A stretch of 63,972 nucleotides of DNA, the filler included, from Chiloscyllium plagiosum (Eukaryota): NCBI RefSeq assembly GCF_004010195.1. It is 9 parts of 9 records of this genome, joined end to end, with 100 filler letters (N's around TTAATTAATTAA, not from the genome) between each part and the next. Parts side by side here need not be neighbours in the genome. Positions count along the whole stretch, not along the records: positions 8,902 to 38,245 come from NC_057746.1; 8 more parts are not named here. One strand, 5' to 3'. Both the position numbers and the translations under genes were made by a program. The notes beneath the pieces were generated by a model that had not been told where the DNA came from, ran no database searches, and saw only the letters and a list, made by a program, of their open reading frames with translations. The number at the start of each line of letters is the position of its first letter. Within the stretch, counting starts at the first letter, position 1. Below are positions 1,022 to 62,859 of this stretch, in pieces.

Positions 1022-1027
1022 TTTATT
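1022..1027 (-). promoter_or_regulatory. AATAAA polyadenylation signal overlapping the secretory IgM stop codon
   Basis: Minus strand reads TGT CAA TAA AA; the same arrangement recurs at 62539-62544. Confidence 0.6.
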
Positions 1028-1414
1028 GACATGAATTAACAGTGTCCATCAGTGCAAGTGAAATGTTTACAAAACTCGGTTTACCCCTGGATTTATCGAC
1101 TGTTCTGTTGATGATCTTCAATGGAATCGCTTCATGTCCCACCACACAGGAGTAAGAAGCACCGCTGGCCCACTCCTCCGCTGTAATGGATAACAGGCTG
1201 TAGATGAAGAAGGAGGTGTTGTCGCTCTCCACCATCACCTCGGTGTTCTTGTAGTTACTGGGATTCACCGGCTTGTCATTGTTTGTCCACTTGACGAAGA
1301 TCTCTCGGGGGGAGAAACCTCTCACTAAACAGGTGAGGGAGAGAAACCTCTGAGCGGAGATTTCTTCTGTTGGTGGCAGGAGGACCGACACTGATGGCTC
1401 CAGCGGATTAATCA
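1023..1414 (-). CDS. IGHM: IgM heavy chain CH4 exon with secretory tailpiece (copy 1)
   Basis: Acceptor ctgcAG|TG ATT AAT at 1414 (phase 1). Reads [78 protein letters not shown], matching the shark Cmu4 + tailpiece (NIS sequon, penultimate Cys). Internal G|GTAAA donor for the membrane form ends the exon at 1085. Confidence 0.95.
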
Positions 1415-1869
1415 CTGCAGAATATTTGAGACAAATATAAATCAATCAAAAAAATCCTGAACCAATATCACAATTTCACTAAATATTAAAATACGCCAAG
1501 TTTAATTTGGGATTTATTCACTTTCGTTTTCTAAAGGAGCAGTATGGTCCACATACTGTTCAGTAAAAAAAGGAAAGTTTAATGTGAAAGTTGCCTCCAT
1601 GTTTCCAGCCCACAACGAGGACATTCTGGCCATTTGTCATTGCTGATGTTGACGTCACAACCCAGGCTTCTTCCCACCTTATCTGACTTAATCAGAATAC
1701 AATATCCTTTGGTCCATCTTTTTCTGAATCAGCTACTGAGCTATCCTGCCTTCAGATGCATCATTAATGCTCCCAACGGTGTTGGTTCATTTCCAATCAA
1801 AGCCTGTCATTGATATCACTGGATCTGGATTACACATGGGATCCTTTGTGCTTTACTCTCACCGCTCAC

Positions 1870-2159
1870 CTTTCTCCGTTGAGTCGGTAGATTCTGATGG
1901 TACACCACACATTCAAAAGTAACGCCACTCAGCCAGGCTTCAGTAGAAATGTCTAATTTGCTGATCACGCTGTCGGGATTCTGTCCAGGCTGCTCAGCAA
2001 TCTCTGATTTCAGAGGCTTCTTTTCTTGTTTCCAGGTGACGTTGACTCCAGAAGGAAGATTGGACACAACGCAGGTTAACGTCACCGTCGCCTCCAGTAA
2101 GACTTGTTCTACTGGCGGTGGGAGGATTTTAACGGTGTTAGGGTGGCACTCGGTATCTT
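1870..2159 (-). CDS. IGHM: IgM CH3 exon (3' end appears deleted; main donor out of phase)
   Basis: Acceptor tttcatAG|AA GAT ACC; [47 protein letters not shown]. Donor AAG|GTGAGC at 1870 is phase 0; a second donor G|GTGAGA at 1863 is phase 1. Confidence 0.9.
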
Positions 2160-3346
2160 CTATGAAACAAAAATCAAAGTAAATGAAAAATGCCCCTTTC
2201 TGATACAAACAGCCAATCTTCAGATTACTCATTCACAGGGTGAAGACACCACCTTCAAAATGGAAACTCCAACTATTCTGAAACGATGCTTACTATTGTT
2301 GATGTATTTTGATCTGTGAAACATTTGTGATTACCTATAACATACCCTGTGTAATTATTCCGAAAGAACACTGGCTTTGTAACAAGCGAAACCTGTGAAA
2401 AAAGTAAAATCACCGAAGATACCATCATGTAACCCATGGAATGACCTTTCTTTCAGAGTTTGTCTCTCACTTAAGACCATCCATTGATACTTGTGACAAG
2501 AGTAATCTGAATATAATGAGTTCATTTCCATGTTCATAACCCTTAGGTACAAGTGCTGCTGGTCACACTGACTGCCAAATCACATCCCAAATTTTGGACA
2601 AATTATAAGAAATAATAATTATTCTCTTTGCAGAGTTCTAAAGTGTTACAGAAGCAGTGAACAGCCATGGAAATTCTGTTCATTATGTTTCCAGGTCACG
2701 TTGACTCCAGAAGGAAGATTGGACACAACGCAGGTTACCGTCACCGTCGCCTCCAGTAAGACTTGTTCTACTGGCGGTGGGAGGATTTTAACGGTGTTAG
2801 GGTGGCACTCGGTATCTTCTATGAAACAAAAATCAAAGTCAATGAAAAATGCCCCTGTCTGATACAAACAGCCAATCTTCAGATTACTCCTTCACAGGGT
2901 GAAGACACCACCTTCAAAATGGCAACTCCAACTATTGCTGAAACGATGCTTACTATTGTTGATGTATTTTGATCTGTTAAAGCATTTGTGATTACCTATA
3001 ACATACCCTGTGTAATTATTCCGAAAGAACACTGGCTTTGTAACAAGTGAAACCTGTGAAAAAAGTAAAATCATCAAAGATACCATCATGTAACCCATGG
3101 AATGACCTTTCTTTCAGAGTTTGTCTCTCACTTAAGACCATCTATTGATACTTGTGACAAGAGTAATCTGAATATAATGAGTTCATTTCCATGTTCATAA
3201 CCTTTACGTGCAAGTGCTGCTGGTCACACTGACTGCCAAATCACATCCCAAATTTTGGACAAATTATAATAAATAATAATTATTCTCTTTGCAGTGTTCT
3301 AAAGTGTTACAGTAGCGGGGAACAGCCATGGAAATTCTGTTCATTA
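2027..3346. repeat. ~660-bp tandem duplication (2027-2685, 2686-3346) containing the 5' half of CH3 and upstream intron
   Basis: Two near-identical blocks offset by 659-661 bp, both starting tgtttccaggt. Confidence 0.92.
2686..2818 (-). pseudogene. IGHM: Truncated duplicate of IgM CH3 (5' half, intact acceptor)
   Basis: [44 protein letters not shown], then runs into intron sequence and stops at 2646. Confidence 0.88.
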
Positions 3347-3627
3347 TATTTAACGTGATCAAAAATACTTTGCGTTATTGGTGTGATGTCATTCTCTAAT
3401 TGATGTCATTGTTCCTCGTGGGCTGTGTTTGGAGTAGATCTGAAAACAAGACATTGAGTACAGCATTGGATATCGAGAAGGACACCCATCTCCTTAAGTC
3501 TTTCCCTCCATTCAGTTAGTTCATAACTTGTCTGTACTTTCACTATATTTACCAAGCTGCATTTTTTAATTTCTTCATAGAGCAGGGGAGAAAAAAAAAA
3601 CAAACAAAAGTGTCTTAAATTAATCTA

Positions 3628-3711
3628 CAAACTCGATGGAAATGTGCACTAATTTTATAGACATCCACTCAAACTCGATGGAAATGTGCACTAATTTTAT
3701 AGACATCCACT
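3628..3711. repeat. 42-bp perfect tandem duplication
   Basis: caaactcgatggaaatgtgcactaattttatagacatccact x2. Confidence 0.9.
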
Positions 3712-4810
3712 ACTCACTGTGTAAACATCGCCAACCCAAACCAGGCTAAATCAGCCTGTCTCGAGTTCCTCGTTCACTCATCCCTATTGTAGCATTCCCA
3801 CCAGAATTTATTCTCCTTCCTCATCCACTAATTACAGAGAGCATCTTAAGGAAGCTCAGTGAGATCACATTTATCCCAGTTCATCAAATGTGATAGCCAC
3901 TTGGTCTGTGGTCTGATCCCATAAATGAAGTTAAAGAGCTCAGTACCAGATAAAAATCGATGTCGTACAATGTCCAACCAACAGGTCATTCCTGAGCAGG
4001 GAATGAAGCATTGAACGCATTTTGATTTATTTTCAAGTAAGGGTCATTGCATATTTTAACCACGTCAATTTGATAGAGGATCAGAATAATGCTATTCAGC
4101 CAATCCAGAGTTTAGATCAGAATGATGCTGGAAAAGCACAGCAGGTCAGGCAGCATCCGACGAGCAGGAAAATCGACGTTTCGGGCTAAAGCCATTCTCC
4201 TGCCTTCTCCCCGTACTAAACAAGAGCCGATCTATCTGTGGCTTGAATACACACAATGGCCTGGCCTCCACAGCCCTCTGCAGCAACATGTTCCACAGAC
4301 TCATCACCCTCTGGCTGAAGAAATTCCTCCCCATCTCAGTTCTAAACGGTGCCCCTTTGACCCTGAGACTGTGCCTTTGGGTCCTAGTCTCGCCTCCCAG
4401 TCAAAACACCTATTCCACATTCACTCGACCTCAGTCTCTCAGTATTTTCTATGTTTCAATCAGATATCTCTCCAATATCCCCCCTGCACCCCAAACGTAT
4501 CATTGAAGCGACTACCAGGCAAGGATTTAGCACTCTGAATGTCTCTCCCAGCATGGCCAGGCAACAAACTATTTAACAAAGCTCACTGTCTATATATCTA
4601 TCTTCAATAGAGAGGAAACATGCTTTTCTGACTTGCCAAAATGTTGAATTATGAGCAATGCTAATGTCACACTCAAACTAAAATGAGATACGTGGCATGT
4701 TGGGAAACGAGAAGCTGCACCGTGCTGGTTACTACGCCTGATAAATTAGTGTGTTTGATTCACATCAGTGTTCAGAGTGATTTGTAGCTCTCTCAGTCTG
4801 TGTCTCTTAC

Positions 4811-5122
4811 CCTGGAGTGCGGTGATGTTTTTTCTTTGAGTATTCTCTCCATGAGTGACCTGGCAGGTATAGACCGCACTGTTGAACCATTCACCATAAG
4901 GGACCATCAGCCGACTCGTCACCGAAAAGTTCCCATTCGCCTCACACACGGGAGACGTGAAGAAGCCGGAATCCAAGGGTCGGCCATTTTTCAACCAACT
5001 CACGGAGATTGACTTCGGATGGAACTCGATGATTGAACAGACGACGGTTGCAAACTTGCTGCTTGCGATTTCTTCACTGGAGCTCACAGTTAGGAGAAGA
5101 GTTGGTTGGAGAATATCTGGAC
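4811..5122 (-). CDS. IGHM: IgM CH2 exon (intact)
   Basis: Acceptor cctaaAG|GT CCA, donor CAG G|GTAAGA, 312 nt, phase 1-1. [48 protein letters not shown] matches shark Cmu2. Confidence 0.93.
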
Positions 5123-5289
5123 CTTTAGGAAACACATCGCCTCCAACGAATTTCATAACAAATACAATCAGTTCTCATATATCAAGGTTTCTTGTGGTTA
5201 ATGGATACAAGAATCATAACTGTGCAGAGTGCTGGAGAAGCTGGGATCCACACAGAAAGATCAGCAGGACAATGTGAAAGGCTAAACTT

Positions 5290-8115
5290 AGAGGACACAG
5301 CAAGGGAGTCAAGGACGCATAGAAACTATAGGCCGGTAACATCAGAAGGGAGATAGCAACGTTGGATGGTATTCGTTTTAATAACAGCGTCTGATGAACA
5401 AGGCAGACGAATTACTGGCACAAATGAAGAAATGATGCCGTTGCTATCACAGAGACATATTGAGAGCCGGGCAGGAGTGGCTATTCAATCTTCCAGGATT
5501 TAGTGCCTTCAGGCGAGACAGAGAAAGATGGAAAAGGACGGGGGCGGGGGTGTGCGGTACAGAATGTTGCTTCTGTCGCAATTCTGACAAGAGTATTTTA
5601 GGCTGTAAAGAGAAATGAAATCATGGATGCCGCCTTGAACAAAGGCAAATGGACAGTACTTCAAAACCAAAACACAGCAAACATAACTACTGGGAGAGCA
5701 CGATCGACCTTACTCTCGGTCCAAAACACCAAGTGCAAATTTCAGAGACATGTAAATTAAATAGGGGAATGTGAAAATAGGTTTTTAACTTCCTCAGCAT
5801 AGGCTTGGATATTCATTTTGTCAAAAATTTAGAGGGAGCACAATTCTGAAAATGCCCCCAGGAGAATATTTGAACAAAGTATGTGTTTAATACAGAGAAT
5901 TTTAATCCAGACATTGCAAGAGAGGGGTGAACCTGAGCTTAACTTTATGGAATGAAGTCGACCCAGTGGGTAAAACATCAATGGTGGAGCACTTTGCAGA
6001 CAGTAATCGTAAAGCAGTTGGATTTCAGATTGTACTGCAAAGGAATAGAAATTGGCCCAAAGTTCTGAATAGGGGAAGGACAATTTTAGTAAGATCAAGT
6101 AATGACTTGACACGAGTGGACTGGAAGCTGACACTTATTGGTAAATCTGAGTCAGAGCAGTGTGACACATTTAAGAAAGAGATAGGAAAATCACAGGGAA
6201 GACATTTCCCAGGAAGCCACTGCGTGGGACCAAGAATGCAGCGGGCTCTGGACACCAAAGGGCATGGAGGGTGAGATAAAGAGAAACAAGGGAGGCCTCC
6301 TGTCTCTACTGAAATCTCAAAACAATAGAAACTAATATGGAGTACAAAACGTGCAAGGGGGAGTTTGAAAGACAAAGGAATTAGAAGAGCAAAAGGGACC
6401 ATGATAAAATAATAGCAGTCAAAGTAAAGGAAAATATTTTTAAAAGTTACAGGCTCATTCATACTAAAAGAATTATTCGGGAAACAGTAATGCCCATTAA
6501 GTGTTATTATTGGAGTGGAGCCGGAAGATTAGGTTGTGGTCAAAACGAATGTGTTGTGTCAGTGTTCACTAGTAAGAGGGACAGTGTGGGGACAGAAATC
6601 ATGGAGGGGTGTTGTGATGTACCTTCAGAAATTCGGACACATGACGTGATGTTCTGTGTTGTCTTGCTGAATGAAAAGTGGTTATATTTCCAGGGCAGAT
6701 GAAAAGTATACCAAGCGGTTGAGCGATGCAAAGGATGAAATAGTTGGGTCACTGACAATAATTTAGAATTTCTGTCTGGCCACAGCAGTTGTGCCAAGTG
6801 AGTGTAGATCAGCCAACGTTGCACTGCTATGCAGGACGAAGGAAGGGATTAAAAATGAAAACACAGATCTGTCAAGCTAGTCTCAGTGGTAAGGAAACTA
6901 TTGAGAAGTGAAATTAGTCTTCATTTGGAAGATAAATCTACAATTTTCAGCAAGTTTTATTTAGAGGAAGTCACGTGTAACAACTTGATAGTAGTTTTCA
7001 TAGAGATAACTCGATGTCCAGATGATTGCAATAATCAGAGCCAATGGGATCCGAGTTAATTTGACAGATTGGATCTAGAACTGGCTGAGTGGTGGGAGCA
7101 GGATAATAGTCATCGGGTGTCTGCGTGACTGGAAATCTATGTCTCCTGGTGTTCTGTAGGGATTGCTGTTGATTTCCTTGCTATTTCTCTTACATGCCAA
7201 TGATTGAGACTCATATTTAGGAGGATTAACCAGTGAATTCACAGATGAAATGAAAACTGTAATGTTAGTAAGTCATGAGCATAATGGCTTTAGATTGCAG
7301 GAGGATATAAAAGGGTTGGTTATATGTGAAGAGAAAAGTTGCAAATGGAAATTATTCTGAATAAATGTAAGGTGATGTAATTCAGCAGAAGTATCTGTGA
7401 GGTATGACGTTTTGAATGGTGGAACCCTGGAAAGGCCTGAGGATCTTTGGTGCATGTACCCACCGATCCCCTATAGTACTGTGTGGTCTGGATAAAGAGG
7501 CTAAGAAAGTGGGAGGATATTTGCTTTTATTAGCCTAGACAATGACAATGAAGAGTGGTGAGATGATACTGGAACTTAATAAAACACTGGTTAGGCCATA
7601 CTGAAGCGTTGTGTGCATGTTATCGAAGGAATGTGATTACACTGAAGGCAGTATTGATGAGATTTGCCAGGGTCTTGCCTGGGTTGGAGGGTTTTAGTTA
7701 TGAAACTAGTTTAGATAGACAGGGGTTTTCCTTGGAGCAGAGGATAATTAGGGAGAAGATTATCATGATATCTAGAATTATTTTAGGCATATACAGGGTA
7801 AACTGGATGAAACCTTTCCCATTGATGGAGAGAACAATGCCTCAGGGGCACAGGGTGAAGGTAAGGCCAGGAGGTTCCAAGTGGATCTCAGGGGAAAACA
7901 AAATCAAACAGAGGGTGGTGTTAGCCTGAAGCTCAGCACCTATAAGTCATATAGAGACTGAGCCCCTCATAATAAGTATGAAGTATCCTTGCAAGGGCAA
8001 GTCACACAAGGCAATGGATCATGTGCTGGCACATGAGACTGGAATAGTTAGGTGGCTGTTATTGATAGGCGTGAATTGGGTGGAGCAAAGGGCCTTTTTC
8101 CTGTGCTGTATAAGG
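5290..8115 (+). mobile_element. Degraded CR1-type LINE filling the CH1-CH2 intron
   Basis: Endonuclease-like remnants (NKADELL, AVAITET, FRRDR) near 5395-5525, RT-like remnants and a CR1-type 3' region; many stops. Confidence 0.75.
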
Positions 8116-8199
8116 TGAGTCTGAGAAAACGGTTATAAATAATGCCTTATTCATGTTAATCACAGATGATCTGTTTATCTCAGTTCGCACAACACTTAC

Positions 8200-8509
8200 C
8201 TGGACATGGCATTACTTTGCTCTTGTGTGACCCGCTGTGTTGAACCTCACAGGAGATTTTGCTGGGGCAATCTACCACTGACCCGGGCAGGGTTAACTGG
8301 CTGCTCAGGGTGTAGGTTCCCTTCTTGTTTCTCACTGATGGGTAAGTCTTCAGTCCAGTCGTAATTAGCTCCCCTCCTTTCTTATAGGTTACCTTGGTGA
8401 CGTCAGGGGAATAGTCCATCGCCAAACAACCAAAGATCACAGAACCGGTGTTGTGCTCCTGACAGGAGGAGACCAGGCCATAAAGCGTGGGGGGGGGGAG
8501 ACGGTGTCT
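8200..8509 (-). pseudogene. IGHM: IgM CH1 exon copy 1 (frameshift in C10 run; conserved Trp changed to Tyr)
   Basis: Acceptor ttgtAG|AG ACA CCG, donor CCA G|GTAAGT; [33 protein letters not shown]. 310 nt versus 306 in the paralog: G10 at 8489-8498 versus G6. VTYKK replaces VTWKK. Confidence 0.88.
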
Positions 8510-8801: not shown

Positions 8802-8901
8802 NNNNNNNNNNNNNNNNNNNNNNNNNNNNNNNNNNNNNNNNNNNNTTAATTAATTAANNNNNNNNNNNNNNNNNNNNNNNNNNNNNNNNNNNNNNNNNNN
8901 N
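8802..8901. other. Artificial 100-bp assembly linker N44-TTAATTAATTAA-N44 (first of eight)
   Basis: Identical linkers at 8802-8901, 38246-38345, 39951-40050, 41422-41521, 52421-52520, 59929-60028, 61656-61755 and 62860-62959; the 12-mer has stops in all six frames. Confidence 0.97.
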
Positions 8902-18196: not shown

Positions 18197-18559
18197 CAAA
18201 ATAGAGAACGAGAAGGTGTTAAGCAACTCTTTCCATTGCATCACAGCTGTATTCGCACAGAAGACGAGCGGTCATTTTCTTGGCACACGTTCATGGGCAA
18301 GTCGGACGCACGGGTCTGTAGACAAAAATGGCTCTGATCATAAGCAGCTGGGCAGCGATTGTGCTTTCTGATAACAAAGTTTTCAATGCATTTTATGTAA
18401 CTGATAATGTCCATGCAGATTGCCCATTGTTCGCAGCTGGCAGACTCCGTGCAAAAATAAGCATAAGGAATTTCGTTCCTTTTGTAAAGTTGCATTTAAA
18501 ATTACAGATGGCCTTTGCTGTCCAGACAAGCTAATGTGTTTCTCTGACTCCCATCGCGA
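18197..18559 (-). pseudogene. Decayed V-type Ig-domain exon of an unidentified receptor
   Basis: 363 nt between acceptor aaatgcAG| and donor G|GTATGC. Across frameshifts reads ISLSGQQRPSVIL(K)CNFTKG / YAYFCTESASC..CMDII / MTARLLCEYSCDAME. An upstream G|GTAAGC donor lies at 18730. Confidence 0.4.
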
Positions 18560-20798: not shown

Positions 20799-23358
20799 TC
20801 ATGTGGACAGCTTGCTAACTGTTATTGGGTTGCACACATCCAGACACGTGGATATTAGTTCATTTCACTCGTGACTTCGCCTGTGATGGTGGGCAGCCTT
20901 TGGAAATCAGGAGGAGTGTTTTGTTTTTATACTTGGGAGTCACTGGCCAGCCCACAAGTGGCAGAATCCCCAATCTTTGATGTGCTCCAGTAGTTGCAGT
21001 ATTTACATGATCTACTAGTTCACTTTCTGACCAGGGTAATCCCCAGAATATTAATAGTGAAGGATCAATTGCCATTGCCTTGCATTAGGTGGCACAAATG
21101 TAACCTGTTCCTGTCAGCCCAGCCCTGGATATTTCCTAGGTCTTGTTGCATTTGGAAAGAAGCTGATTTTGAAGCTGAGGATATGTGAGTGGCAATGATC
21201 AGTGAACACCCGCATTTCTCACTGTGTGATGGTGGGAATGTCAGTGATTAATTAATTGAGAATAGTTCTATTCATCGAAGATAACAATACTGCAGTACAC
21301 TGATTGACCACTACGTCTTAGCAACATGAAAATTCCCCCCTCTCTCTGTCTCTCTCTCTCTCTTATATATATATATAATTTATATATATATAATTTATAT
21401 CCACACATATACACAAGCTCTCTGGTCTCAATACAACTTCTGTGTCAAGGTCTGATATTGTCATGTCATTATTAGCTGAGGTAAAGTGATTAAGAGCTGG
21501 GAGGCCATGCTGAAACTGTATAAAATGTCCTTTAGGCTACAGCTAAATTATTGTGTGTAGTTCTGGAATTGGAATTCACATTATAGTACAGATGTGATCG
21601 CCCTGGGGAGGGTACAGATGAGATTGACCAAGATGTTGTCATTGTTGGGGCAAATAGATTGTTTGGAATTGAGATTATTTCCTTCAGAGTAGATGAGATT
21701 GAGAGGGCATGATGCAGGTGCATAAAACTATGAGGAAAATAGAGAGGGTGGGTGGGAATTAACTTCTGCCCTTGGTGGAGGGGGCCAGTGACCAGGGTTG
21801 AGAGGAGATGCAAGGATAAACGTTTTCACACAGTCGGAAGCTGACACTCACTGCTTGAAAGGTTAATAGAGGCAGTAATCCTCGTGGCATTTAACATGTA
21901 TTTAGATGCGCACTTCTGACGGCAAGCATGCAAATTTACAGGGCAAGTGATGGAAAATGGGATTAGAATTGTTCAGAGGTTGTTTTGGTCAGGGCAGAGT
22001 CAGTGGCCAAAAAGCCTTTTTCTGCGCTGACAGCTGTAAGAATCTATGGTTCAAGGACATGGGGTAAACATATTAAAGTTTGAAATGTCTCTTTCCAACA
22101 TCAATTATACCAGTAAACCAGTAACTGGGTTTCATTTCGCTTTTTATTTTAGAAAACAAAATGACTTAGGGAAAAACATTTACTACCATTTATTTTAAAC
22201 AAAAGAATTGGATTTATGTGCATTGTTCAACTTAATCGGGTTAAGACATTTCCTATTTATGTAATAACATAACCGTGTTCAAATATTTCACTTGCCCCAG
22301 GGATAGTAACGCTTTAACATTCCATGGTGGCTCATTCAATACTTCACTGAACTATTTCATGAATAGGAAGTATTTAGAGGGATATGGACCAAATGCTGGG
22401 AAACGGGACTACACTAATTGAGGATATCTGGTCGACATGGACGAGCTGGATCAAAAGGTCTGGTTCCATGCAGTACAACTCTATGAGTCTATGACAGGGT
22501 CTTTATTTCAAGGCAGCTATGAATGCCGTTTCAGGATGGTTCAGAGATTATCTGAAACCAGAGGTCGACATTTTCTGATAGCAATCAAAGTTAAAATGGT
22601 TTGTTCCACTAGTTGTTTCCAGACGTTTCTGTTTCCATGAAGCAATTGAGTTTGTAAAACAAAGGGTGTGCATGTATAGAATGAGCTGTCAGAGGAAGTG
22701 ATGGAGGCTGGTATAATTACAAATTTAAAAGGCATCTGGATGGGTACAGGAATAGAAAGGGTTTAAAGGGATATGGGCCAAATGCTGGCAAATGGGACTA
22801 GATTGATAAACATATCTGGGTGGCGTGGACAAGTTGGACCAGACGGTCTGTTACCATGTTGTACAGCTCCATGACTCTATGACACTTTATCACGTGTGCC
22901 ACTTGTTTACATGACTCGGGTATGGCAGCTATGCATTAGGAAGCATGAAGAACTGTGACCGCACGGTTCTGTAGCAGACATATCCCTGACGGTTGTCTGT
23001 CCAGTCCATCAATATAAAATGTTGGGAGTGCAGATTCCAAAGGCATCAGCAGCGTGGTGGGATCCATCTTCAATCGTGAGAAGGGTTTCGGAAGATTCCA
23101 TCCAAAATATTTACCTAAGATAAACAGAATTCAACTGTATTAATAATGTAGAGTTAATTATATCCAATGTATACTACCTATGATGCTTGCATGGACAGCA
23201 ATAATAGTTCCATATAATACCAGAGTATCAGGAAGCGGTTCCCAATCTAGCCAAGGCGAAGTTTTGGTCAACAGTTGCTCGTATTTCTCTCTTTGTTTAT
23301 GATTTCTTTCGTCATTAACAGATTTTTAAAGTCCAAGCTATTTCCTGTTTCATAATAG

Positions 23359-23698
23359 GACAAACGCTTGGAAACATCACGGTGATCCAGAGCCCACCCC
23401 CTGATTACTGCATCCGAAGGTGAAACTCTATTTCTGCACTGTATATGTAACGGGCAAATACGGATAGGTGCATACAAGTGGCACCTCTATGTTCGAGGGG
23501 GCACTGCAGTGTCCAACAAAACTGTGCACTACAGAGGGCGTGTGTTCTTTCCAGACAGGGAGGCCTGCTTGGTAACAAAAGATGCATCGCTAAAAATCAC
23601 TGACACCAAAATGAGTGATTCTGGAATCTATTATTGTGAAATGGAGTACACGATTTACGGAGCAAGATATGGGACAGGAACAAACCTTAAAGTGACAA
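23359..23698 (+). pseudogene. NCR3: NKp30/NCR3-like single-exon VJ-type Ig domain (+1 frameshift in C5 run)
   Basis: Acceptor cataatAG|GA, donor ACA A|GTTAGT, phase 1-1. GQTLGNITVIQSPP/LITASEGETLFLHCICNGQIRIGAYKWHLYVRGGTAVSNKTVHYRGRVFFPDREACLVTKDASLKITDTKMSDSGIYYCEMEYTIYGARYGTGTNLKVT shares NKp30 motifs IG..W, G..V.N.T..(F/Y)RGR, A.L.I.D, IY.C..E and G.GT.L.V. Confidence 0.8.
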
Positions 23699-24099
23699 GT
23701 TAGTATTTGATTACTGGTCTGGCCACTAATTCCCAGGCGAATTGTGGCAAAGTGTAACTTGGAACAAGGTCTTTCTTTCTGCATGACTGGAACTTCAGAG
23801 TTTTAAAGACTCAAGGGCTGATTCTTACGCTGAGATCTTCAGTGCAGGATGACCCGAACCTCAAAGAAATCAATTAACTCCAAACACTAACTAGAACTGG
23901 CATTCAGTTCAAAACCGCCAGATTTCATAGGTCACTTTCAATGGACAAAATCCACAGCTGATCGGTAGAACGACTTGTAGAATGAGGGAATAAATGCGCC
24001 AGGAGCAGGCACGTGGGACTAGTTTGATTTGGGATTATGTTCGGCATGGACTGTTTGGACCGAAAGATCTGTTCCCTTACTGTATGACTGTGTATGCCT

Positions 24100-24760
24100 T
24101 CATATTCACCTCGCCCACCTGTCCTGATGCCTTAAGTGATTGTTGTGCATGCACACCAAGGTCCCTCTGATTCTCGCTGCTTAGCAGAGAGCTACTATTC
24201 ATCAGCTATTTCCTTGTCTAGAGTGTGCTGCCAAGTGCATTCCAGATTGAGTGCCAGTTGCCACTGCCCAATCAACTCCCTCTTCCGTATCCTCTGTATC
24301 TAACTTTGTCCACCTCAGTATTTACCAGCCCCGCCCATTTTGAATCATCTGCAAACTTACTGATCAATCCTCCCACCTTCAAGTCAAAGCCATTTATCTC
24401 AACCGCAAACAGCACGGATCTCAACAATGACGGCCGAGGAACCCTACTGGACACAGACCTACTGCTGGAAAAACACCTCGCAGGAACTACCCTCTGCTTT
24501 CTTCCTCTCAGCCAACTGTGGGATCGAATGTGCCAAATTTCCTTGGGATTCCATGTTCTATTGGTCTCTCATGTCAAGATTTGCTTAAGTCCAAGTAGAC
24601 TACAGCAAAAGCATTGCTCTCCTCGACGAACAATTCAGTGAAGTTGGCCAGACATGACATATCCTTAACAAAACCATACTGACTTGATTAATCAGTGCAT
24701 CGCCAAAAGCAGGTTAATTCTATCCCTTGAAATGGTTGCAATATCTCCCATCAGCAAGGT
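24100..24760 (-). mobile_element. Degraded CR1 RT fragment
   Basis: GGLISKFADDSK motif. Confidence 0.8.
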
Positions 24761-25236
24761 TAGTCTGGACACACAAACAAAACATTTCCGAGCAAAGACT
24801 GTGAACTAAAAGAAAAAGAGTCTTGTTGACTTGGTGAAAGAAATAAACGACCTATCCTGAAAAGATTCACAATGCTTCTCGTCCCCTGAGTAGTTGCTGT
24901 CAAGTAGAAAAACCACACAATCTCTGCATAACGAGTGCCTCGCACAACCTGAAGTGCAAATACCGAACGATCAAGTCATTTCTTTTTAATTCTTCTTTTA
25001 GAAAAGTGCTACAACTTGTCGGTGAATCGCCTGAAGTAATGGCTTCAGTTTAATGGCCTAACATAAAGATGACACATGCGCAGATATGTGTTGCTCTGCT
25101 TACGTATGACAGAAAAACCCCACATAGAAAAATGTTTCAGTGGTGATGTATCCCGACAGTGATAGTGTTGCGATACATGTGAAATAACAAACAACACCCA
25201 TTTTCAAGTTTTAAACTAATGTTTGTTTTTGTACAG

Positions 25237-25293
25237 ATATACGCTAATCACAGAATGAATGGAGAACGATAACTATCAAAAGTACAATAACAA
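25237..25293 (+). pseudogene. Putative Thr-rich stalk exon of the NKp30-like gene (in-frame stop)
   Basis: tttgtacAG|..|GTATGT, 57 nt, phase 1-1: NIR*SQNEWRTITIKSTIT. Confidence 0.5.
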
Positions 25294-25344
25294 GTATGTT
25301 ATTTATTTTTTTTTTGTTTTGATCCTCCACCCACATGCCATCAG

Positions 25345-25520
25345 ATCCAGCTAATGCCACAAGGATCCTTTGGACCACCAGAGCAGTGGTAAAGGTTGGA
25401 TTGGTCCTCACAGCGATTTACTTCAATCGACGCTCCTGTCCCATTAAAGATACTAACGCTGAAACTAAAGAACCAGAATTTTTTTTTATTCACATTTGCA
25501 CAGGGAAGGACATGGATTAG
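25345..25520 (+). pseudogene. Putative TM/cytoplasmic exon of the NKp30-like gene
   Basis: catcAG|AT CCA (phase 1): PANATRILWTTRAVVKVGLVLTAIYFNRR.. Arg near the TM start as in NKp30; four residues shorter than the paralogous TM at 38139. Confidence 0.6.
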
Positions 25521-27229
25521 AGTCATACAACATGGAAACAGCCGGTTTGGCCCAGCTAGCCCATGCTGACCATGTTTCCAAACTAAACTAGTCCTACCTG
25601 CGAGGGCATGGACCTTTCCTGTTCGTGAACTTATTCAGAAGTCTTTTAAACGTTGCAACTGCACCTGTATGCACAGCTTTCTCTGGAAGTTCATTCTACA
25701 CACCAGCCGCTCTGGATAAAAAAAAATTAAATCTTTCTCCTCTCGCCCTTAAAATATTTCCTCTAGTTTTGAACTTCTCCGTCCTGGGGAAAAGAGCCTT
25801 GTCATTCACCTTATCTATGCTCCTCATGATTTTATAAACTTCAGTAAAGCCACCCCTCAACCTCCTACGCTCCAGTTAAAGGAAGTCCCCGTCTTTTCAA
25901 CTTATTTTTATGGCTCAGACTCCCCATTGCCGGCAACATTCTAACAACAGGACCGTTATCTTTAGATGTTAATCCAGGTAATATGGAATTTGAATTCTAC
26001 AAAAGTGCAGAATTAAGACTGTACTGGTGACCACAGTCCCTTTTTGCAGCCCTTACCTGAGCTTGCTTCCATGTGACCCCAGGTCCCCAGCAAAGTTGCC
26101 AATAAACGTTGGCCGAGCCAGCGACATCAACATCCCATGAATGAATTTAAATAAAACCAAGGCAATCATAAAATCACACTCAGAATGCCCACTTCACTCA
26201 ATGGAAATCGACTTTCAACATACTTTTCCTTTCATAATGAAATTCAAGTTATATTTGTACTTTCATTTCATGGTTCTCCTCCACCCCCGCCCCCACCCAC
26301 TTTAGTTCAACTGTCGCTTCAGTGGAGAGTTCACCGCCAGAACTGGGGCTGGCTAATAACTTACCTGATTTTACGAGATTCCTGTGAGTTTAATTTTCAT
26401 TTCATTTTTTTCTTTTTAATTTTGATGCAGAGCTAAACTGCAAACAACCTTGTTTGCACTGCTGGGTGAACGGTCCTTAAGATCGAGTTTGCTTCATTTT
26501 AGCATTTAGTATTAAAGTTGCTTGGCTGCACTGAGACCTTTCCTTCATTCAGCTTGCCGCGTTACTGTGCTTTCTCCGTCAGTAAAGGCTAAAAAGAGAA
26601 ACGCTGCCTCGTCATGGTTTGAGCTCAGACAGATTTTGGTATAGAAGGATTCATTGAATTTCCTTGCCTCGGTTTCCATTTTGTACCGCTTTGGGATTTT
26701 GGGGTGAGTCTTATTTTGTCCTTGTCTTAACCATATGTAGAAGAATATAAACAGGATTAGCCTGTTCAGTTTTTTTTTCCAAATATCAATGTTAGCCATA
26801 CCCTAACTCCGCCTGACTACCTCAGTACTGTAACCCTTAAGGACTTCACAAATGGAAATGCATCTCAGTTTTGTATGTTCCAACTCTGTTTCCTGAATCA
26901 ACAACGTTTTAAAGGAAGGTAATGTTTTATATTTCCACGGCATGAAAAAGTGAGTTTTGGCAATTTCACTGAACGCCGTAACTATAATTTTCAGATTACT
27001 GTTTTAGATGACGTTCCGAAAGTCGCCCAGTAAAAGTTTTATTTCACCATATATGATATGAGATTCTTAGATCACGTCGATAACTCAGTTAGATGCGTAG
27101 TTACTCAAAGGAAACAGTGATTTCAGTAGAAAAACCAGTTATCATAATTTAATCTATCCTGCCTAGTATCAGTCTGGGACAGCTGTCTTGCGCCATCTCC
27201 GTGGTCACCATGTACTCGCTGGCTGTACT

Positions 27230-34826: not shown

Positions 34827-35043
34827 CGTCTAAGAAGGGAATTTCCTCAGTAACAAATTCCCAGCTTCTCCAATCCCTAAGCCACCTGCCATCTTTCCTT
34901 CCCCGTTTCTTTGTCAGGATCCAGAAACTCCCGACACAGAATCCTTTTACGAGTTGCTGCACCATACTGACTGCAGTACCCATCAACGTCTCAAGGGTAA
35001 CGTAGGGGTCAGCAAGAAATACCCACTTCTGAAGAATGAGTAA
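34827..35043 (+). pseudogene. Two putative cytoplasmic exons (34827-34849, 34918-35043) encoding an ITAM-like tail
   Basis: Pyrimidine-rich acceptors (ttattttcAG, tttctttgtcAG) and matching phases: xSKKGISS|DPETPDTESFYELLHHTDCSTHQRLKGNVGVSKKYPLLKNE*. Confidence 0.45.
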
Positions 35044-38245: not shown

Positions 38246-38528
38246 NNNNNNNNNNNNNNNNNNNNNNNNNNNNNNNNNNNNNNNNNNNNTTAATTAATTA
38301 ANNNNNNNNNNNNNNNNNNNNNNNNNNNNNNNNNNNNNNNNNNNNACAGACACACACACAGACAGACACACACACACACAGACTCTGGATTAGTGGTGCT
38401 GGAAGAGCACAGCAGTTCAGGCAGTATCCGAGGAACAGTAAAATCAATGTTTCGGGCAAAAGCTCTTCATCAGGGATAAAGACAGAGAGCCTGAGGGGTG
38501 GAGACACACAGACTCTCCAGTCCCTTAC

Positions 38529-38807
38529 CCCACTAATAGAGCTGGGCCTCTGCCAGGCTGCTGTGTTCAATGTGACGGGAGTATTGATCCTCATCCCCAG
38601 CATTGATCTCAATCTCTTTCTGGATCTGATGGGTCCCATCGTGGTTCGGTTGAACCCCCGAGGAATGTGTCTCAGACATGACCTCTCCATTCCTTAGCCA
38701 GGTCACCTCGATGTCTACAGGATAAAACCCAGTGACCAGGCAGGAGAGAGTGAGCGGCTTGTCCTGACAACTGGGCTCCCTCCTGGAGATGAACACTTCA
38801 GGCTGAA
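38529..38807 (-). pseudogene. MHC class I alpha3 exon (Cys>Arg, premature stop)
   Basis: VQPEV..LSCLVTGFYPVDIEVTWLRNG..PNHDGTHQ..QYSRHIEHSSL..LY*W; acceptor catcacAG, donor G|GTAAGG. Confidence 0.92.
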
Positions 38808-38923
38808 CTGTGATGGGAAAGGGTGAAAACACAAACAATAGACAGACACTGAATGGAATGGGAGAGCGGTTTCATAGATCAGTGAGGTTAGATCAAAACG
38901 TGGAGCAAAACTGAAATACATAC

Positions 38924-39174
38924 CTTTCCTTGTGAAATAATCCTTTCCAACTTCCAGATATCTGTTTAAATGTTCAACAGATGTTTTTTGCAGATATGAT
39001 TCCCAATAGTAGTTCCAGGATTGATCTGAATTCCATTTCTCTTTATTGATCACTGCAAAGTGATTTGCGGCAACCCATCTCATTCTGTCTGGCTCTAAAC
39101 TAATGTGGTCCTTTCCATCAAATCCAAATCTCATTGATCTCTTAATGCTGCCATCATCACTGACCTCAACAGGT
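38924..39174 (-). pseudogene. MHC class I alpha2 exon (5' deletion/frameshift, helix Cys>Ser)
   Basis: EVSDDGSIKRSMRFGFDGKDHISL..WVAAN..A...KEKW..YLQKTSVEHLNRYLEVGK; donor G|GTATGT; first beta strand missing after the acceptor. Confidence 0.9.
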
Positions 39175-39255
39175 CTGATCAGAGGGGAAAGGGTTCCAAT
39201 CTCAAGTTAAAGTTGCAGAATTAGTTGACAGTCCTCATTTCACTTTACATTCCAA

Positions 39256-39490
39256 GGTCAGTGCTGGGGGATGGACTGAGTGGACAGACCCAGGGGTCAG
39301 TGCTGAGAGATGGACTGAGTGGACAGACCCAGGGGTCAGTGCTGGGGGAAGGACTGAGTGGAGTGACCCAGGGGTCAGTGCTGGGGGAAGGACTGAGTGG
39401 ACAGACCCAGGGGTCAGTGCTGAGAGATGGACTGAGTGGACAGACCCAGGGGTCAATGCTGGGAGATGGACCGAGTGGAGTGACCTGGGG
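39256..39490. repeat. 39-bp minisatellite (~6 copies) in the alpha1-alpha2 intron
   Basis: ggtcagtgctgRgRgaWggactgagtggacagacccagg units. Confidence 0.93.
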
Positions 39491-39522
39491 GATAATGTGG
39501 ACAATTGACGGTGAGATTTTTC

Positions 39523-39776
39523 CTGAAGTCTGGTTTGTCCTTTTCATGATCGATTTCAGATTCCCCTTTGCCAGCCTGGTGTGTGTGATCGCCTGATCTG
39601 TAGCATCGTCCCAGAATTTCACACTGAGTGAATCAGCCAGGAACTGCTGCCTGGGGACACAGCGACGGGTATCACTGTCAAAGTAACCTGTTTGTATTCC
39701 GTTGACCATCGCAACAACAGTGACTTCAGGGAAATCTTGTTCTGCTGAGACAATTGTATAGTTCGTGAGTTAGTCT
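39523..39776 (-). pseudogene. MHC class I alpha1 exon (frameshift, donor GT>GA)
   Basis: ETNS/NYTIVSAEQDFPEVTVVAMVNGIQTGYFDSDTRRCVPRQQFL..FWD..RTNQTSG; TCA G|GAAAAA where a GT donor is expected. Confidence 0.88.
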
Positions 39777-40493: not shown

Positions 40494-40799
40494 CTGGACA
40501 TGGCATTACTTTGCTCTTGTGTGACCCGCTGTGTTGAACCTCACAGGAGATTTTGCTGGGGCAATCTACCGCTGACTCGGGCAGGGTTAACTAGCTGCTC
40601 AGGGTGTAGGTTCCCTTCTTGTTTCTCACTGATGGGTAAGTCTTCAATCCAGTCGTGAATAGCTCCCCACCTTTCTTCCAGGTTACCTTGGTGACGTCAG
40701 GAGAATAGTCCATCGCCAAACAACCAAAGATCACAGAACCGGTGTTGTGCTCCTGACAGGAGGAGACCAGGCCATAAAGTGTGGGGGGCGATGGTGTCT
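40494..40799 (-). pseudogene. IGHM: IgM CH1 exon copy 2 (nonsense Gln>stop)
   Basis: 306 nt with canonical splice sites; AGC AGC TAG TTA at 40591-40593 versus CAG in the other copies. Confidence 0.9.
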
Positions 40800-41139
40800 C
40801 TACAACAGAATGACCAATTGAGCATGTTAGTTTCTGTTAATTTGACCTTATCAGTTACTCAAATGTATCCTCAGCTGTAAACGTTTGCCAGTATGCACCC
40901 GCTGAAGTCTACAGCATAACTGGGGTTTATCTTTGTTTCCTACCAGTTGCTGATCATGATCATTGGTTCCCTCTTTAGAAACATGCCTTCGAACTTGACC
41001 ATTGCCATATAATTTAGGAAGAAGAACATCCTGATCCCACCCCAGAAACTGTTTGAAGATCTCACCAACTGACACTTTCACTGAATTGCTGTGAAGAGCA
41101 GAGACGTTTCACAAAATACAAACCAAGGAATTGCAGATT

Positions 41140-44500: not shown

Positions 44501-45706
44501 TGACCATGAAACCATCGTTGATTGTCAGGAAAAAGCCATGTGATTCCCTAATGTCATTTTGGGAAGGAAACTGCCATCCTTCCCATGTGACACCAGACCC
44601 ACAACAATCGTTGACTCTAAAATGCCCTCTGGGGATTAGGGATGGGCAATAAATGTTGCTGATCCAGCAATGCCCTCGTTCCGTCAAGGGAAAAAGAAAA
44701 ACAGTTTATCCCATGTGTCTTCTTAACCACCTTACTGACCTGCATTCATTAATCACCATGGCCACATCTTCCACCTCCACACACGTGACTTCCAACCCCA
44801 AGCTGATGAGAGACATTCCTTCAATATCTGCGAAATGGACAGAAACATCAAACACAGGAGCAGCAGTAGGCCATTCGGCCCCTCAAGCCTACTCCACCAT
44901 TCAATATGATCATGGCCGATCATTCAACATTGTCCCCTGTTCCTGCTTTCTCCCCTTGTTCTTTGATCCCTTGAATCTTAAGAACTGTATCTAATTCCTT
45001 CTTGAACACATACCGCATCTAATTCCCTCATGCTGGTAAATTGATGAGAATTATTGAGTTGTTTTTTGATACAATGATCCGTTGGGCCTTCTGGGTCTCT
45101 CTGACTCTGACTCTATTATTATATATTATGAAGAACTGGGTTCCAAGGACTGATCCCTGTGGTACCCCAACTGGTAAATATCTGCCATTCAGAAAAAAAG
45201 ACTCGTTCTTCCTGTCCTGTCTGCCAACCAGTTCTCAATCCATGTCAGTACATGACACTCAATCCTCTTGTTTGTTGGGATTTCTTTGATTCAGTTGGAC
45301 ATATTTAATCCTGTTCAATGTTACCCCTGCATTTTCGATTCTCCTCTGGGTTTTCTGCAGGTTTGAACTCCAGATAACCAACATCACCTTCCTGTTTGGT
45401 CTTCCCTACACTGGCTGCCTTTTGACATCCCAGGCTGAGAGTCTAGATTTGGGAGTCCCCCTTACTCCTTGTGTGAACAGATTCTGAACAATCGCTGTCT
45501 TTTCTTTTGAGGGATTCCACTGCCCTGACACTGATTTCCCATCATATCGTTGGTTCCAGTCCACTTTTACTAAATCATCACACAGTTTAGTAAAATAGTT
45601 CATTCCCAAGTGAAAACTTTAACACTTGCTGCATGGTTCTCCATTTCCATCCCTACTCTCAATCTCACTGAGTTCTGATCACTGTCATTAAACTACTCCC
45701 CCATTG
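41522..45706 (-). mobile_element. Patchwork of CR1 fragments with a tRNA-type SINE (~44355-44690) and assembly gaps
   Basis: QIETGRYDVVGITE (endonuclease), CR1 3' ends at ~42850 and ~43850, GVPQGSVLG-type remnant at ~45140-45170. Confidence 0.7.
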
Positions 45707-46027
45707 AACTCTCAGCCCAAGCTGACCCTGCTGCCCCCCTCCCCAGAGCAGGTAGATGCCAAGGGCACTGCCACCCTGGTGTGCCTTGCTAATTACTTCT
45801 ATCCCGATGAGCTGGAGGTGCAGTGGAAGAAGGATGGTGCAGTCATTTCGGACGGGGTTCAGACCAGCAACTACCTGCGAGCTTCGGACAGCACCTACAG
45901 TGTCAGCAGCCTGCTGACCCTCTCTGGGTCTGACTGGGAGTCCAACGCTCGCTTCTCCTGTGCCCTCACCCACGTGACCCTCCCCTCTCCCCTCAGCAAG
46001 AGCATCAGGAGATCAGAATGTGTGTAG
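45707..46027 (+). pseudogene. IGKC: Ig light chain C exon, kappa (type III/NS4-like), copy A: open frame but native acceptor lost
   Basis: NSQPKLTLLPPSPEQVDAKGTATLVCLANYFYPDELEVQWKKDG..SDSTYSVSSLLTLSGSDWESNARFSCALTH..RSECV*; abuts CR1 sequence directly; ATTAAA at 46552. Confidence 0.85.
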
Positions 46028-54470: not shown

Positions 54471-54798
54471 CTACACACATTCTGATCTCCTGATGCTCTT
54501 GCTGAGGGGAGAGGGGAGGGTCACGTGGGTGAGGGCACAGGAGAAGCGAGCGTTGGACTCCCAGTCAGACCCAGAGAGGGTCAGCAGGCTGCTGACACTG
54601 TAGGTGCTGTCTGAAGCTCGCAGGTAGTTGCTGGTCTGAACCCCGTCCGAAATGACTGCACCGTCCTTCTTCCACTGCACCTCCAGCTCATCGGGATAGA
54701 AGTGATTGGCAAGGCACACCGGGGTGGCAGTGCCCTTGGCATTGACCTGCTCCGGGGAGGGGGGCAGCAGGTCAGCTTGGGCTGAGAGTTTTCACCAC
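54471..54798 (-). pseudogene. IGKC: Ig light chain kappa C exon copy B: acceptor intact, 1-nt deletion and Leu>Pro
   Basis: cttgcgtttcAG|GT GGT GAA AAC TCT CAG CCC AAG CTG AC CTG (copy A has ACC CTG); TPVC versus TLVC; AATAAA at 53939-53944. Confidence 0.88.
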
Positions 54799-59928: not shown

Positions 59929-60698
59929 NNNNNNNNNNNNNNNNNNNNNNNNNNNNNNNNNNNNNNNNNNNNTTAATTAATTAANNNNNNNNNNNNNNNN
60001 NNNNNNNNNNNNNNNNNNNNNNNNNNNNGACTGCATGCTATTCACTTGCCTGGATGAGTGTAGATTTAATCACTTTCAAGCAGTTTAATACCTTCCAGGA
60101 TAAGCAGACTTGCTGGATTGACATCCGTTTTCTTTTATTTCGGATTGGAATTAGATTGAAACAGATTCACGCTGTGTCTCAAAACTCAGAAATGCTTAAA
60201 GCCACTGTAGACTTCTATACAATCAAATTTCATGGTTGGTTATATTGTAATTGGGTAACGACAGATTGCAGAATTACTATTGAACTTTAGTCACGATGTA
60301 TGTTTTTGGAGATGTTGTGAATCTGAGGTAGTATGATTTGGAAACATGTAATTTCAATTAAGCACTTTGAGAAGAAAACTGATATAAAGGACGAGACAAT
60401 TTTTTTTGTGCAATGTTTTGTAAACTTTTGGAACAGTTAATGATGATGGTATCGGAGTGTTCTTATTTCTTCATGAAGTAATATGATAATAGTCAAGATG
60501 GAAGGGCGTGTTTCTGATGAAGGTACCACCACATCATAGTCAACAAAACAACCACAACAAAAATAGTCTAAAATTCTGCTGGAGCTTTTAACTGGAACAC
60601 GTTGGAACAGTCTCAGAGCTGTGAACACAGTTTCGTGACTGACACTGTTCTATATACAGAGTCTAACTTGTTAAATCTCCCATTTTTCTTTTACCGAG

Positions 60699-60998
60699 CG
60701 ATGCCATCTGCCCCCACACTTTATGGCCTGGTCTCATCCTGTCAACAAGGCGACACGGATCGCTCCATTACTTATGGTTGTTTGGCGATGGATTACATTC
60801 CAGACGTCACCAGAGTGACCTGGAAGAAAGACGGAGAGAAGCTCACAGCTGGATTGAAGACTTACCCATCAGTGAGGGACAAGAAGGGAACTTACACCCT
60901 GAGCAGCCAGTTAACCCTGACCGAGTCAGAGATGAATTGCAGCAAAATCTACTGTGAGGTCCAGCACAGCAAGTCCAACAAGAGCATTGCAATGCCAT
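60699..60998 (+). CDS. IGHM: IgM CH1 exon, divergent subfamily (copy 4)
   Basis: [67 protein letters not shown]; 300 nt, phase 1-1, donor T|GTAAGT; acceptor is an atypical GAG. Confidence 0.88.
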
Positions 60999-62163
60999 GT
61001 AAGTGTTGGAGGGACTGAGATTAACAGAATAGCTGAGATTAATATGATGCATTATTTATATCACTTCCCACAGAGTCAGAGAGGTCTACCACAGGGAACA
61101 TAAACCATTCGGCTTTTTGAATCGATGCCTATGAAAACCAAATTATTCTGTGCAATCTCCGAGCATTTTATCCATTGCCTTGCATAACTTCACACTGTGG
61201 TTCAATACTAATTCAATATTATGAGGGTGTCATCTCTCCCAGCCTTACAGACAGTGATCCAGATTCCCACCACGACCTGAGTTATATTTTTCCGCTGGCA
61301 TCCTCTCTAATCATCCTTAAACCCCTTCGACGTTGCCTCTACCAACAAGTGGAAATGTTTCTTCCTCTCTCCCCGTCCATGCCCTCATTATTCCACACAT
61401 CTCCATCATGTCCCCGCTTCTTCTCCTCTGCTCCAAGGAAAACAAAGACAGTCCAGCCAATCTCATTTCATCCTTTCAAAACTACAACTTTGCATCCCGG
61501 GTAACATCCTGGTCATCCTTCTCTCGGTCCTCTGCATTGTATTCACATCCCTCCTCTAACGTGGGCTCCACAACTGTACACAATGCATTTGCTGTGGTCT
61601 AACCAAAGTTTTAGTACATTCCAGCTTCACCTCCCTACTCCTAAACTCTGTGCCTNNNNNNNNNNNNNNNNNNNNNNNNNNNNNNNNNNNNNNNNNNNNT
61701 TAATTAATTAANNNNNNNNNNNNNNNNNNNNNNNNNNNNNNNNNNNNNNNNNNNNCTGTCAACTCATGAGTTGGTGCAAGATCCCTTGTATTTCTTCAGA
61801 AACAAATGTTAAATTCAAATTGATCTCCACACTTTACTATTGGTATGTCCAATCAAAATTAATTTTAAAAGTCTCTTAGTTTGCGTTTCTAATTGGTGAA
61901 TTGTGACAGTTTAAAACTGACGTGAATTTTGTAAGAATGGCCAATCGGGAAATCAGGAACACCAAGATCAAAACTTGTGTTGTCCCCTTGATGTAGAATG
62001 GACATTGTCAGATTCCGTCACAGTGGGATTTAGGATGGATGAGGTACTTGGCGGAATCCTGCAATGAATGTGCTTTACTCTGTCTCTCACCCAGGGTGTA
62101 TCGGAGCAGGGAACATTAACTGCACAAACACGCTTCCCAGACCTGTTAATGATACAATTTAAC

Positions 62164-62552: not shown

Positions 62553-62859
62553 TTAACAGTGTCCATCATTGCAAGTGAAATGTATACAAAAATGTTTACC
62601 ACTGGATTTATCGACAGTTCTGTTGATGATCTTCAACGGAATCGCTTCATGCCCCACCACACAGGAGTAAGAAGCACTGCTGGCCCACTCCTCCGCTGTA
62701 ATGGATAACAGGCTGTAGATGAAGAAGGTGTTGTTGCTCTCCACCATCACCTCGGTGTTCTTGTAGTTACTGGGATTCACCGGCTTGTCATTGTTTGTCC
62801 ACTTGACGAAGATCTCTCGGGGGAAAAAACCTCTCACTAAACAGGTGAGGGAGAGAAAC
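62553..62859 (-). CDS. IGHM: IgM CH4 exon copy 2 (5' cut by linker) with frameshifted secretory tail
   Basis: [42 protein letters not shown]; 2-nt deletion just after the G|GTAAAC membrane-form donor (62600). Confidence 0.9.

What the first reader, a model, noticed from the sequence alone, without database searches (positions are those of the whole stretch)
23359..25520. NKp30/NCR3-like gene with a germline-joined V+J-like domain
A single exon encodes a complete V domain ending in a J-like YGTGTNLKVT, with no RSS or intron between V and J. This is the VJ-type architecture of NKp30 and other proposed relatives of the pre-RAG antigen-receptor ancestor. Each exon has a lesion: +1 in CCCCC (23397-23401), TAA in the stalk exon, and a TM four residues shorter than its paralog, with only a 51-nt intron before it. 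Several independent lesions favour a true pseudogene over sequencing error.
Basis: partly seen in the sequence, partly recalled or inferred. Interest (0 to 1): 0.7.

Follow-up and report, generated by a model that had tools for sequence, protein, structure and literature searches.

The report
Decaying shark NKp30 receptor pseudogene
This is a broken copy of a known shark family of NKp30-type killer-cell receptor genes: one stop codon is shared by three related species and two further breaks differ between individuals, so it is likely an ordinary pseudogene still decaying, and its unsplit antibody-like domain is the family's long-known design.

Summary
Confirmed: one exon (23359-23698) encodes a V-set domain with its own G strand and no nearby RSS. 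Its best sequence and fold matches are human NKp30 and shark NCR3 proteins. Trees reject IgL and TCR placement but not SIRP (51, 73). The host is likely a bamboo/epaulette shark (42). The unsplit VJ exon is the published design of NCR3 (PMC12227049, PMC10751288), and the scan met this family elsewhere in this genome (e1-8651330, unreviewed).

The lesions are real. The stalk TAA stands in all 4 runs laid on it, from three species. The C5 frameshift segregates: C4 in 2 of 3 samples, C5 in 1. A new V-exon nonsense change (23659) is in 2 of those 3, including one C4 sample. Only 1-2 of 15 exon substitutions are synonymous. A likely leader exon (18328-18370) has AT at its donor (70, not checked in runs).

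Not confirmed: no paralog lies in the window, and the short TM has the same length in the relatives, so it is not shown to be a lesion.

Verdict: pseudogene of a known family, low interest.

The parts
18328..18370 (+). Likely leader exon: ATG + 13 codons + 1 nt, Trp at position 8. The donor position 18371-72 reads AT, not GT.
   Evidence: Rank 6 of 1242 ATG-started windows on a 15-leader shark profile. It is the best-scoring window with G|NT[AG] at the expected donor, and G|NTAA occurs in 6 of 1242. Spacing to NITV equals nurse shark NCR3 P0036. The donor pattern was chosen after seeing the site; not checked in runs.
23359..23698 (+). Single exon encoding a complete V-set domain with G strand (YGTGT), NCR3/NKp30 family
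   Evidence: Pfam V-set 6.2e-12; top 4 PDB hits human NKp30; AF2 with alignment pLDDT 93 and Foldseek ranks 1, 2, 4, 5 NKp30; tree
23397..23401 (+). C5 run, a +1 frameshift; polymorphic
   Evidence: One C left out in X1 (S1) and X4 (S2), not in X5 (S3)
23659..23661 (+). Gly codon in the window; a TGA nonsense codon in two other samples, upstream of the G strand
   Evidence: 23659 G>T in X4 (S2) and X5 (S3), not in X1
25237..25293 (+). Putative 19-codon Ser/Thr-rich stalk exon with in-frame TAA at 25245-25247
   Evidence: Acceptor and donor read from the sequence; TAA unchanged in X2, X6, X10, X18; splicing not shown
25294..25344 (+). 51-nt GT..AG intron (54 nt in organism C); contains an in-frame TGA if retained
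   Evidence: translation
25345..25449 (+). Transmembrane exon with the family's Arg (25380-82). The second basic residue, Lys 25392-94, is Ile in organisms B and C.
25450..25503 (+). Likely 54-nt intron: donor AT in organisms A and C, GT in organism B; read through in frame in the window
   Evidence: 25450 A>G in X10 only; acceptor CACAG; inferred, no RNA
25504..25520 (+). Short last coding piece ending in TAG; no signalling motif in the tail
   Evidence: Translation

Best explanation
This is a member of the shark NCR3/NKp30 gene family carrying a stop codon shared by three species and two more breaks that differ between individuals, and it is most likely a pseudogene decaying by drift. Inferred ancestral function: leader, one unsplit V domain, short stalk, a membrane helix with one Arg and a tail without motifs. 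That would be an activating receptor that binds a B7-H6-type ligand and signals through an ITAM adaptor (CD3 zeta or FcR gamma), as human NKp30 does; this step rests on homology and was not tested. Inferred order of decay: the stalk TAA arose before organisms A, B and C split and likely removed the membrane form. Later changes then accumulated without constraint: the TM Ile-to-Lys change in A, the C5 slip, the V-exon TGA and probably the leader donor.
For: Family: top PDB hits are NKp30. The best single-V hits among 1.84 billion representatives are shark proteins, several named NCR3 or NCR3-like, including two nurse shark NCR3. Profile scores are 115 bits for the NCR3-like set against 20 IgL, 35 TCR and 40 SIRP. 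The AU test rejects grouping with IgL (p 0.004) and TCR (p 0.027). Pseudogene: TAA in 4 of 4 runs laid on it, covering A, B and C. Of 3 other samples laid on the V exon, 2 carry a null there (S2 TGA; S3 C5 and TGA), as does the window. Of 15 exon substitutions 1-2 are synonymous, against about 26% expected under neutrality: P 0.07-0.21 at omega 1, 0.004-0.02 at omega 0.5. A Lys entered the TM in A only. The domain has two extra cysteines and two changes at near-invariant columns. No annotated close orthologue was found in two word searches (weak evidence).
Against: The V domain is still gap-free and keeps 19 of 21 strongly conserved columns; 10 of the 37 other family members deviate as much or more. 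The model folds at pLDDT 93, though that mostly reflects the alignment. Sample S1 shows C4 and no TGA, but 7 of its 10 differences over 22900-24043 were not listed. V could splice in frame straight to the TM exon and skip the TAA. Without the stalk positions the selection test weakens (11 changes; omega 0.5 gives P 0.025-0.10), it mixes polymorphism with divergence, and immune receptors can have omega near 1 by positive selection (recalled). The NCR3-like set was chosen by similarity to the query, so the profile contrast is partly circular. SIRP placement is not rejected (p 0.22), and the NCR3 clade has only 80/92 support.
Confidence: 0.84

Rival explanations
1. A live activating receptor with common null alleles: the 'stalk exon' is skipped or is not an exon, V splices in frame to the TM exon, and C4/no-TGA haplotypes make membrane NKp30.
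For: V donor and TM acceptor are both phase 1. S1 shows C4 and G at 23659. The TM exon has no indel or stop in the parts covered in A, B and C. The family has members with and without an extra stalk segment (P0036 against P0046).
Against: The stalk exon has a strong acceptor and donor, both kept in A, B and C. At most 1 of the 7 TM-exon base changes is synonymous, and a Lys entered the helix in A. The window and 2 of 3 other samples are null in V. The likely leader donor is AT in the window.
Confidence: 0.08
2. A secreted V-only decoy: the conserved TAA ends the protein three residues after the V domain, and the message would escape nonsense-mediated decay.
For: TAA is kept in three species. 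It lies 46 nt before the 25293 junction, inside the recalled 50-55 nt rule, and the later donor is AT in A and C.
Against: Three unchanged bases at a few percent divergence are expected by chance. Two V-exon nulls segregate in A. Organism B has a GT donor at 25450, which would add a downstream junction. No intact leader donor is seen in the window.
Confidence: 0.05
3. A germline-joined Ig light-chain or TCR V-J, or another VJ family such as SIRP, rather than NCR3.
For: Sharks have germline-joined IgL lambda genes (PMC12227049, passage). In the PDB sequence search antibody chains trail NKp30 narrowly (33.6 against 35.1 bits). The AU test does not reject SIRP.
Against: AU rejects IgL and TCR. 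Profile scores favour NCR3. Foldseek ranks NKp30 first. No C-domain exon was found in this record, and the next exons are stalk and Arg-bearing TM.
Confidence: 0.02
4. An intact gene with assembly errors.
For: The window is a gapped draft of concatenated records. C runs are error-prone. Several window letters differ from every run laid (for example 25231 and 25378).
Against: C5 is also in S3, which differs from the window at other sites. TAA is in 4 of 4 runs.
Confidence: 0.01

Closest known systems
Shark NCR3 family (nurse shark NCR3 QTT61898.1 = P0036, QTT61904.1 = P0050; Kinlein et al. 2021, title seen only in reference lists, text not held)
   Same: Single V-set domain with own G strand; 14-residue leader with Trp8 and the same spacing to NITVIQSP; basic residue in the TM as in P0050; 38-45% identity to the nearest shark domains
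   Different: Broken; joins none of the sampled shark subclades in the tree, though joining any of three tested subclades is not rejected (p 0.10-0.17); TM at the short end of the family
Human NKp30/NCR3 (PDB 3pv6, 3noi, 6yjp, 9fww)
   Same: Best sequence and fold match (34% identity, TM-score 0.83); one IgV, TM Arg, short tail (PMC6514059, passages)
   Different: Functional single gene in MHC class III; MHC linkage and ligand binding of this copy are untested
Mouse Ncr3 pseudogene
   Same: An NKp30 gene lost as a pseudogene; intact in Mus caroli (PMC6514059, passage)
   Different: In the mouse the gene itself is lost in most strains; here it is one paralog of a multigene family, and the stop is shared by all three species seen
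UrIg/UrIg2 and germline-joined shark IgL lambda
   Same: Unsplit VJ exon in an elasmobranch (PMC12227049, passages)
   Different: These carry C1 domains; this gene goes V to stalk to TM. UrIg was not in my tree

Membership tests
NCR3/NKp30 | One exon encodes a whole V-set domain including a G strand with GxGT | tested here: met
NCR3/NKp30 | Non-rearranging: no RSS in or beside the exon | tested here: met
   6 RSS-like sites in the window, nearest 2.6 kb upstream
NCR3/NKp30 | Best sequence and structure matches are NCR3 | tested here: met
NCR3/NKp30 | Tree placement in the NCR3 clade | tested here: inconclusive
   Inside the NCR3-like clade at 80/92, split from TCR/IgL at 97/93; IgL and TCR rejected; SIRP not rejected; a first tree with 71 rows was unresolved. 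CD28/CTLA4, CD79, UrIg, IgH and IgNAR were not in the tree.
NCR3/NKp30 | No C domain; V followed by stalk and TM | tested here: met
   C-domain hits fall only in other records of the window
NCR3/NKp30 (activating type) | Basic residue in the TM helix and a tail without motifs | tested here: met
   Arg at 25380-82, no change listed in any of the runs laid; aligns with the family's Arg/Lys
NCR3/NKp30 | Location in the NCR3 cluster or MHC region | not testable with these tools
   No genome held; no neighbouring gene identified in the 29-kb record
NCR3/NKp30 | Binding to B7-H6 and to an ITAM adaptor | not tested
   No complex job sent; the gene is broken
Functional NCR3 gene | Open reading frame across V, stalk and TM | tested here: not met
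   C5 frameshift and TAA in the window; TAA in 4 of 4 runs; met only if the stalk exon is skipped on a C4/no-TGA haplotype
Germline-joined IgL or TCR V-J | V domain groups with IgL or TCR V and is followed by a C exon | tested here: not met
   AU p 0.004 and 0.027; profile bits 20 and 35; no C exon. Of 11 IgL rows 9 were shark, mostly named kappa-like.

The most novel reading that the evidence does not exclude
The locus is an old NCR3 paralog with no annotated close orthologue, in which a stop conserved across three shark species converts a membrane NKp30 into a secreted V-only decoy (or an exon-skipped receptor) that is live on some haplotypes and null on others, a presence/absence polymorphism of a shark NK receptor.
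Probability: 0.1. Interest if true: 0.5.

Novelty: new member of a known kind. Interest (0 to 1): 0.16.

Why it matters
It adds one dated example of birth-and-death evolution in the shark NCR3 family: an old shared stop followed by young, segregating nulls. It gives no new evidence on the pre-RAG receptor ancestor, because the unsplit VJ exon of NCR3 is already part of that argument in print. It would matter more if a haplotype proved to make a secreted or exon-skipped product, which would give sharks a polymorphic NK-receptor system open to direct genotyping.

Tried and rejected
Paralog in the window: none above shuffled controls for V, stalk or TM. A J-like stretch at 50746-50711 (minus) and a TM-like stretch at 34917 scored within the null range.

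Expression: no RNA holder listed. Single-cell run X21, about 2% read, gave 181 reads, all only partly fitting and none on the V or TM exon; this is not evidence either way.

Close orthologue: two word searches found none; the first scored only 100 candidates, so this is weak. The metagenome scan was blank. The ESM Atlas gave no result.

Single-sequence fold: pLDDT 44.5, unused.

Leader: strict scans that required a GT donor found no convincing exon. A candidate at 23171 ranked 7th of 7034 and lacks both ATG and donor, so I rejected it in favour of 18328.

Subfamily: three placements tested, none rejected, none supported.

Papers not held: Kinlein 2021, Flajnik 2012, Ohta and Flajnik 2015, Ohta 2019. 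I therefore cannot say whether this copy or shark NCR3 pseudogenes are described there or in their supplements. Seven paper searches were answered; their listings showed no paper on this locus.

Full report
Context. The window is a concatenation of records separated by N44-TTAATTAATTAA-N44 spacers. The finding lies in the record 8902-38245, so the Ig constant and MHC class I-like exons elsewhere in the window (recognised by eye, except IgL) are not shown to be neighbours. The IgL constant exon of another record is 97-98% identical to Hemiscyllium and Chiloscyllium proteins, so the host is likely a bamboo or epaulette shark. No genome is held.

Observation. The V frame matches Pfam V-set at 46.1 bits; it was the only one of 13 ORFs scanned to pass a curated cut-off. 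The nearest RSS-like site is 2.6 kb away. No paralog exists in the window, so the 'four residues shorter' comparison cannot be reproduced. Against 13 family tails the TM is short (14 residues after the Arg; range 14-21) and the least hydrophobic, but organisms B and C show no indel in the parts covered.

Family. Of 165 PDB sequences matched, the first four are human NKp30 (E 1.2e-7 to 1.8e-7), with antibody chains close behind. Among 1.84 billion representatives, 254 hits reached E 0.001 and 150 were listed; the best full-length single-V hits are 39-46% identical. I looked up names for 30 of the 150. The top ones are shark proteins, among them two nurse shark NCR3 and Heterodontus NCR3-like proteins, then lungfish, newt and possum NCR3. 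With a 38-row alignment the domain folds at pLDDT 93.1, and Foldseek ranks NKp30 chains 1, 2, 4 and 5.

Tree. In a 59-row tree the domain, read through with X at the break, sits in the NCR3-like clade (80/92), separated from TCR and IgL by a 97/93 branch. AU tests reject grouping with IgL (p 0.0039) and TCR (p 0.027) but not SIRP (p 0.22) or three shark subclades (p 0.10-0.17). An earlier 71-row tree left the deep forks open and lacked the shark IgL rows. The 59 rows were picked by me from 234 extracted domains plus shark IgL. The NCR3-like rows came from a search with this query, so the profile contrast (115 bits against 20-40) is partly circular. TCR and SIRP labels are my reading of the sequences.

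Are the lesions real? Twenty of 24 listed runs hold part of the stretch; the best are four samples of organism A, then organisms B and C. Laid on 22900-25900, S1 and S2 lack one C at 23397 while S3 has C5 like the window. The frameshift is therefore a real, segregating indel. S2 and S3 also have 23659 G>T, which turns a Gly codon into TGA before the G strand. So the window, S2 and S3 are each null in the V exon; S1 may be open, but 7 of its 10 differences were among the rows not shown, and its contig depth is 4.6. Contigs are collapsed diploid sequences, so these are not phased haplotypes. Laid on 25185-25522, A/S1, A/S4, B and C all cover 25245-47 and none differs, so the TAA predates the split of the three species. 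The TM Lys is Ile in B and C. The donor after the TM exon is GT in B and AT in A and C.

Selection. Of 15 substitutions in V (4, within A), stalk (4) and TM (7), one is synonymous and one more may be, depending on the path through the double change at 25393-94. This fits neutrality (P 0.07-0.21) and disfavours omega 0.5 or lower (P 0.004-0.02). Leaving out the stalk gives 11 changes and P 0.025-0.10 at omega 0.5, 0.003-0.018 at omega 0.3. The V exon of B and C was not examined. Against decay, the V domain keeps 19 of 21 conserved columns.

Leader. A 43-nt stretch at 18328-18370 has the family's leader pattern and, joined to the V exon, gives the same spacing to NITV as nurse shark NCR3. Its donor reads ATAACA. 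It ranks 6 of 1242 on protein score alone, so the case rests on the combination with the donor-like context, which I noticed after the fact. It is not in a long repeat within the window. If real, it is a further lesion or a window error.

Mechanism. Shown: anatomy, family, the TAA in three species, two segregating V nulls. Inferred: that the ancestor was an activating receptor pairing through its TM Arg with an ITAM adaptor, as described for human NKp30 (PMC6514059, passages); that the stalk exon is spliced in; that the TAA came first and released constraint. On the window's allele the frameshift ends the frame a few codons after the C run, so no V domain could be made. The live alternatives (exon skipping, secreted V) need RNA evidence that I could not obtain.

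Literature. PMC12227049 (passages) names NCR3 as the other non-rearranging, MHC-linked VJ single-exon gene and lists nurse shark NCR3 accessions MT914154-914161. PMC10751288 (passages) says the same of NKp30. PMC10450919 and PMC12272517 were read for the Kinlein reference and one passage on isoforms. The primary shark NCR3 paper was not held. An unreviewed note of this scan reports an NKp30 cluster on another piece of this genome.

Verdict. A new, broken member of a known family.

Noticed in passing
window 8802-8901, 38246-38345 and six more spacers: The window is built from separate records joined by N44-TTAATTAATTAA-N44, so apparent linkage of Ig, MHC class I-like and NCR3-like sequences here is artificial.
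   Followed up: yes
window 45692-46027 (+) and 54471-54791 (-): Two near-identical IgL constant exons on different records; the first is 97-98% identical to Hemiscyllium/Chiloscyllium kappa-like chains.
   Followed up: partly
window 1023-8509, 40528-40809, 60572-61018, 62553-63244: Shark IgH constant exons (IgM-like by eye) on several records; the copy at 40528-40809 has an in-frame stop.
   Followed up: no
window 2027-2690 and 2686-3351: A 97% identical tandem duplication that includes part of an IgH constant exon; real duplication or assembly artefact.
   Followed up: no
window 38533-39769 (-): MHC class I-like alpha 1, 2 and 3 exons on a short record (recognised by eye).
   Followed up: no
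window 34829-35040 (+): Exon-like stretch with acceptor and donor; one frame reads SFYELL (ITIM-like, motif recalled). No similarity to family tails or to the TM exon above chance.
   Followed up: partly
window about 7043-6994 (-): A 50-nt stretch in the IgH record aligns to the leader candidate better than 60 of 60 shuffles but does not extend; unexplained, possibly chance.
   Followed up: partly
window 23701: Sample S2 has T>G in the V donor (GTTAGT to GTGAGT), a closer match to the splice consensus, on a contig that also carries the V-exon stop.
   Followed up: no
proteins P0001-P0160: Many shark NCR3-like proteins are annotated as SIRP-beta, pIgR-like, turtle-like or uncharacterized; several have 2-5 tandem V domains or Tyr-motif tails.
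   Followed up: no
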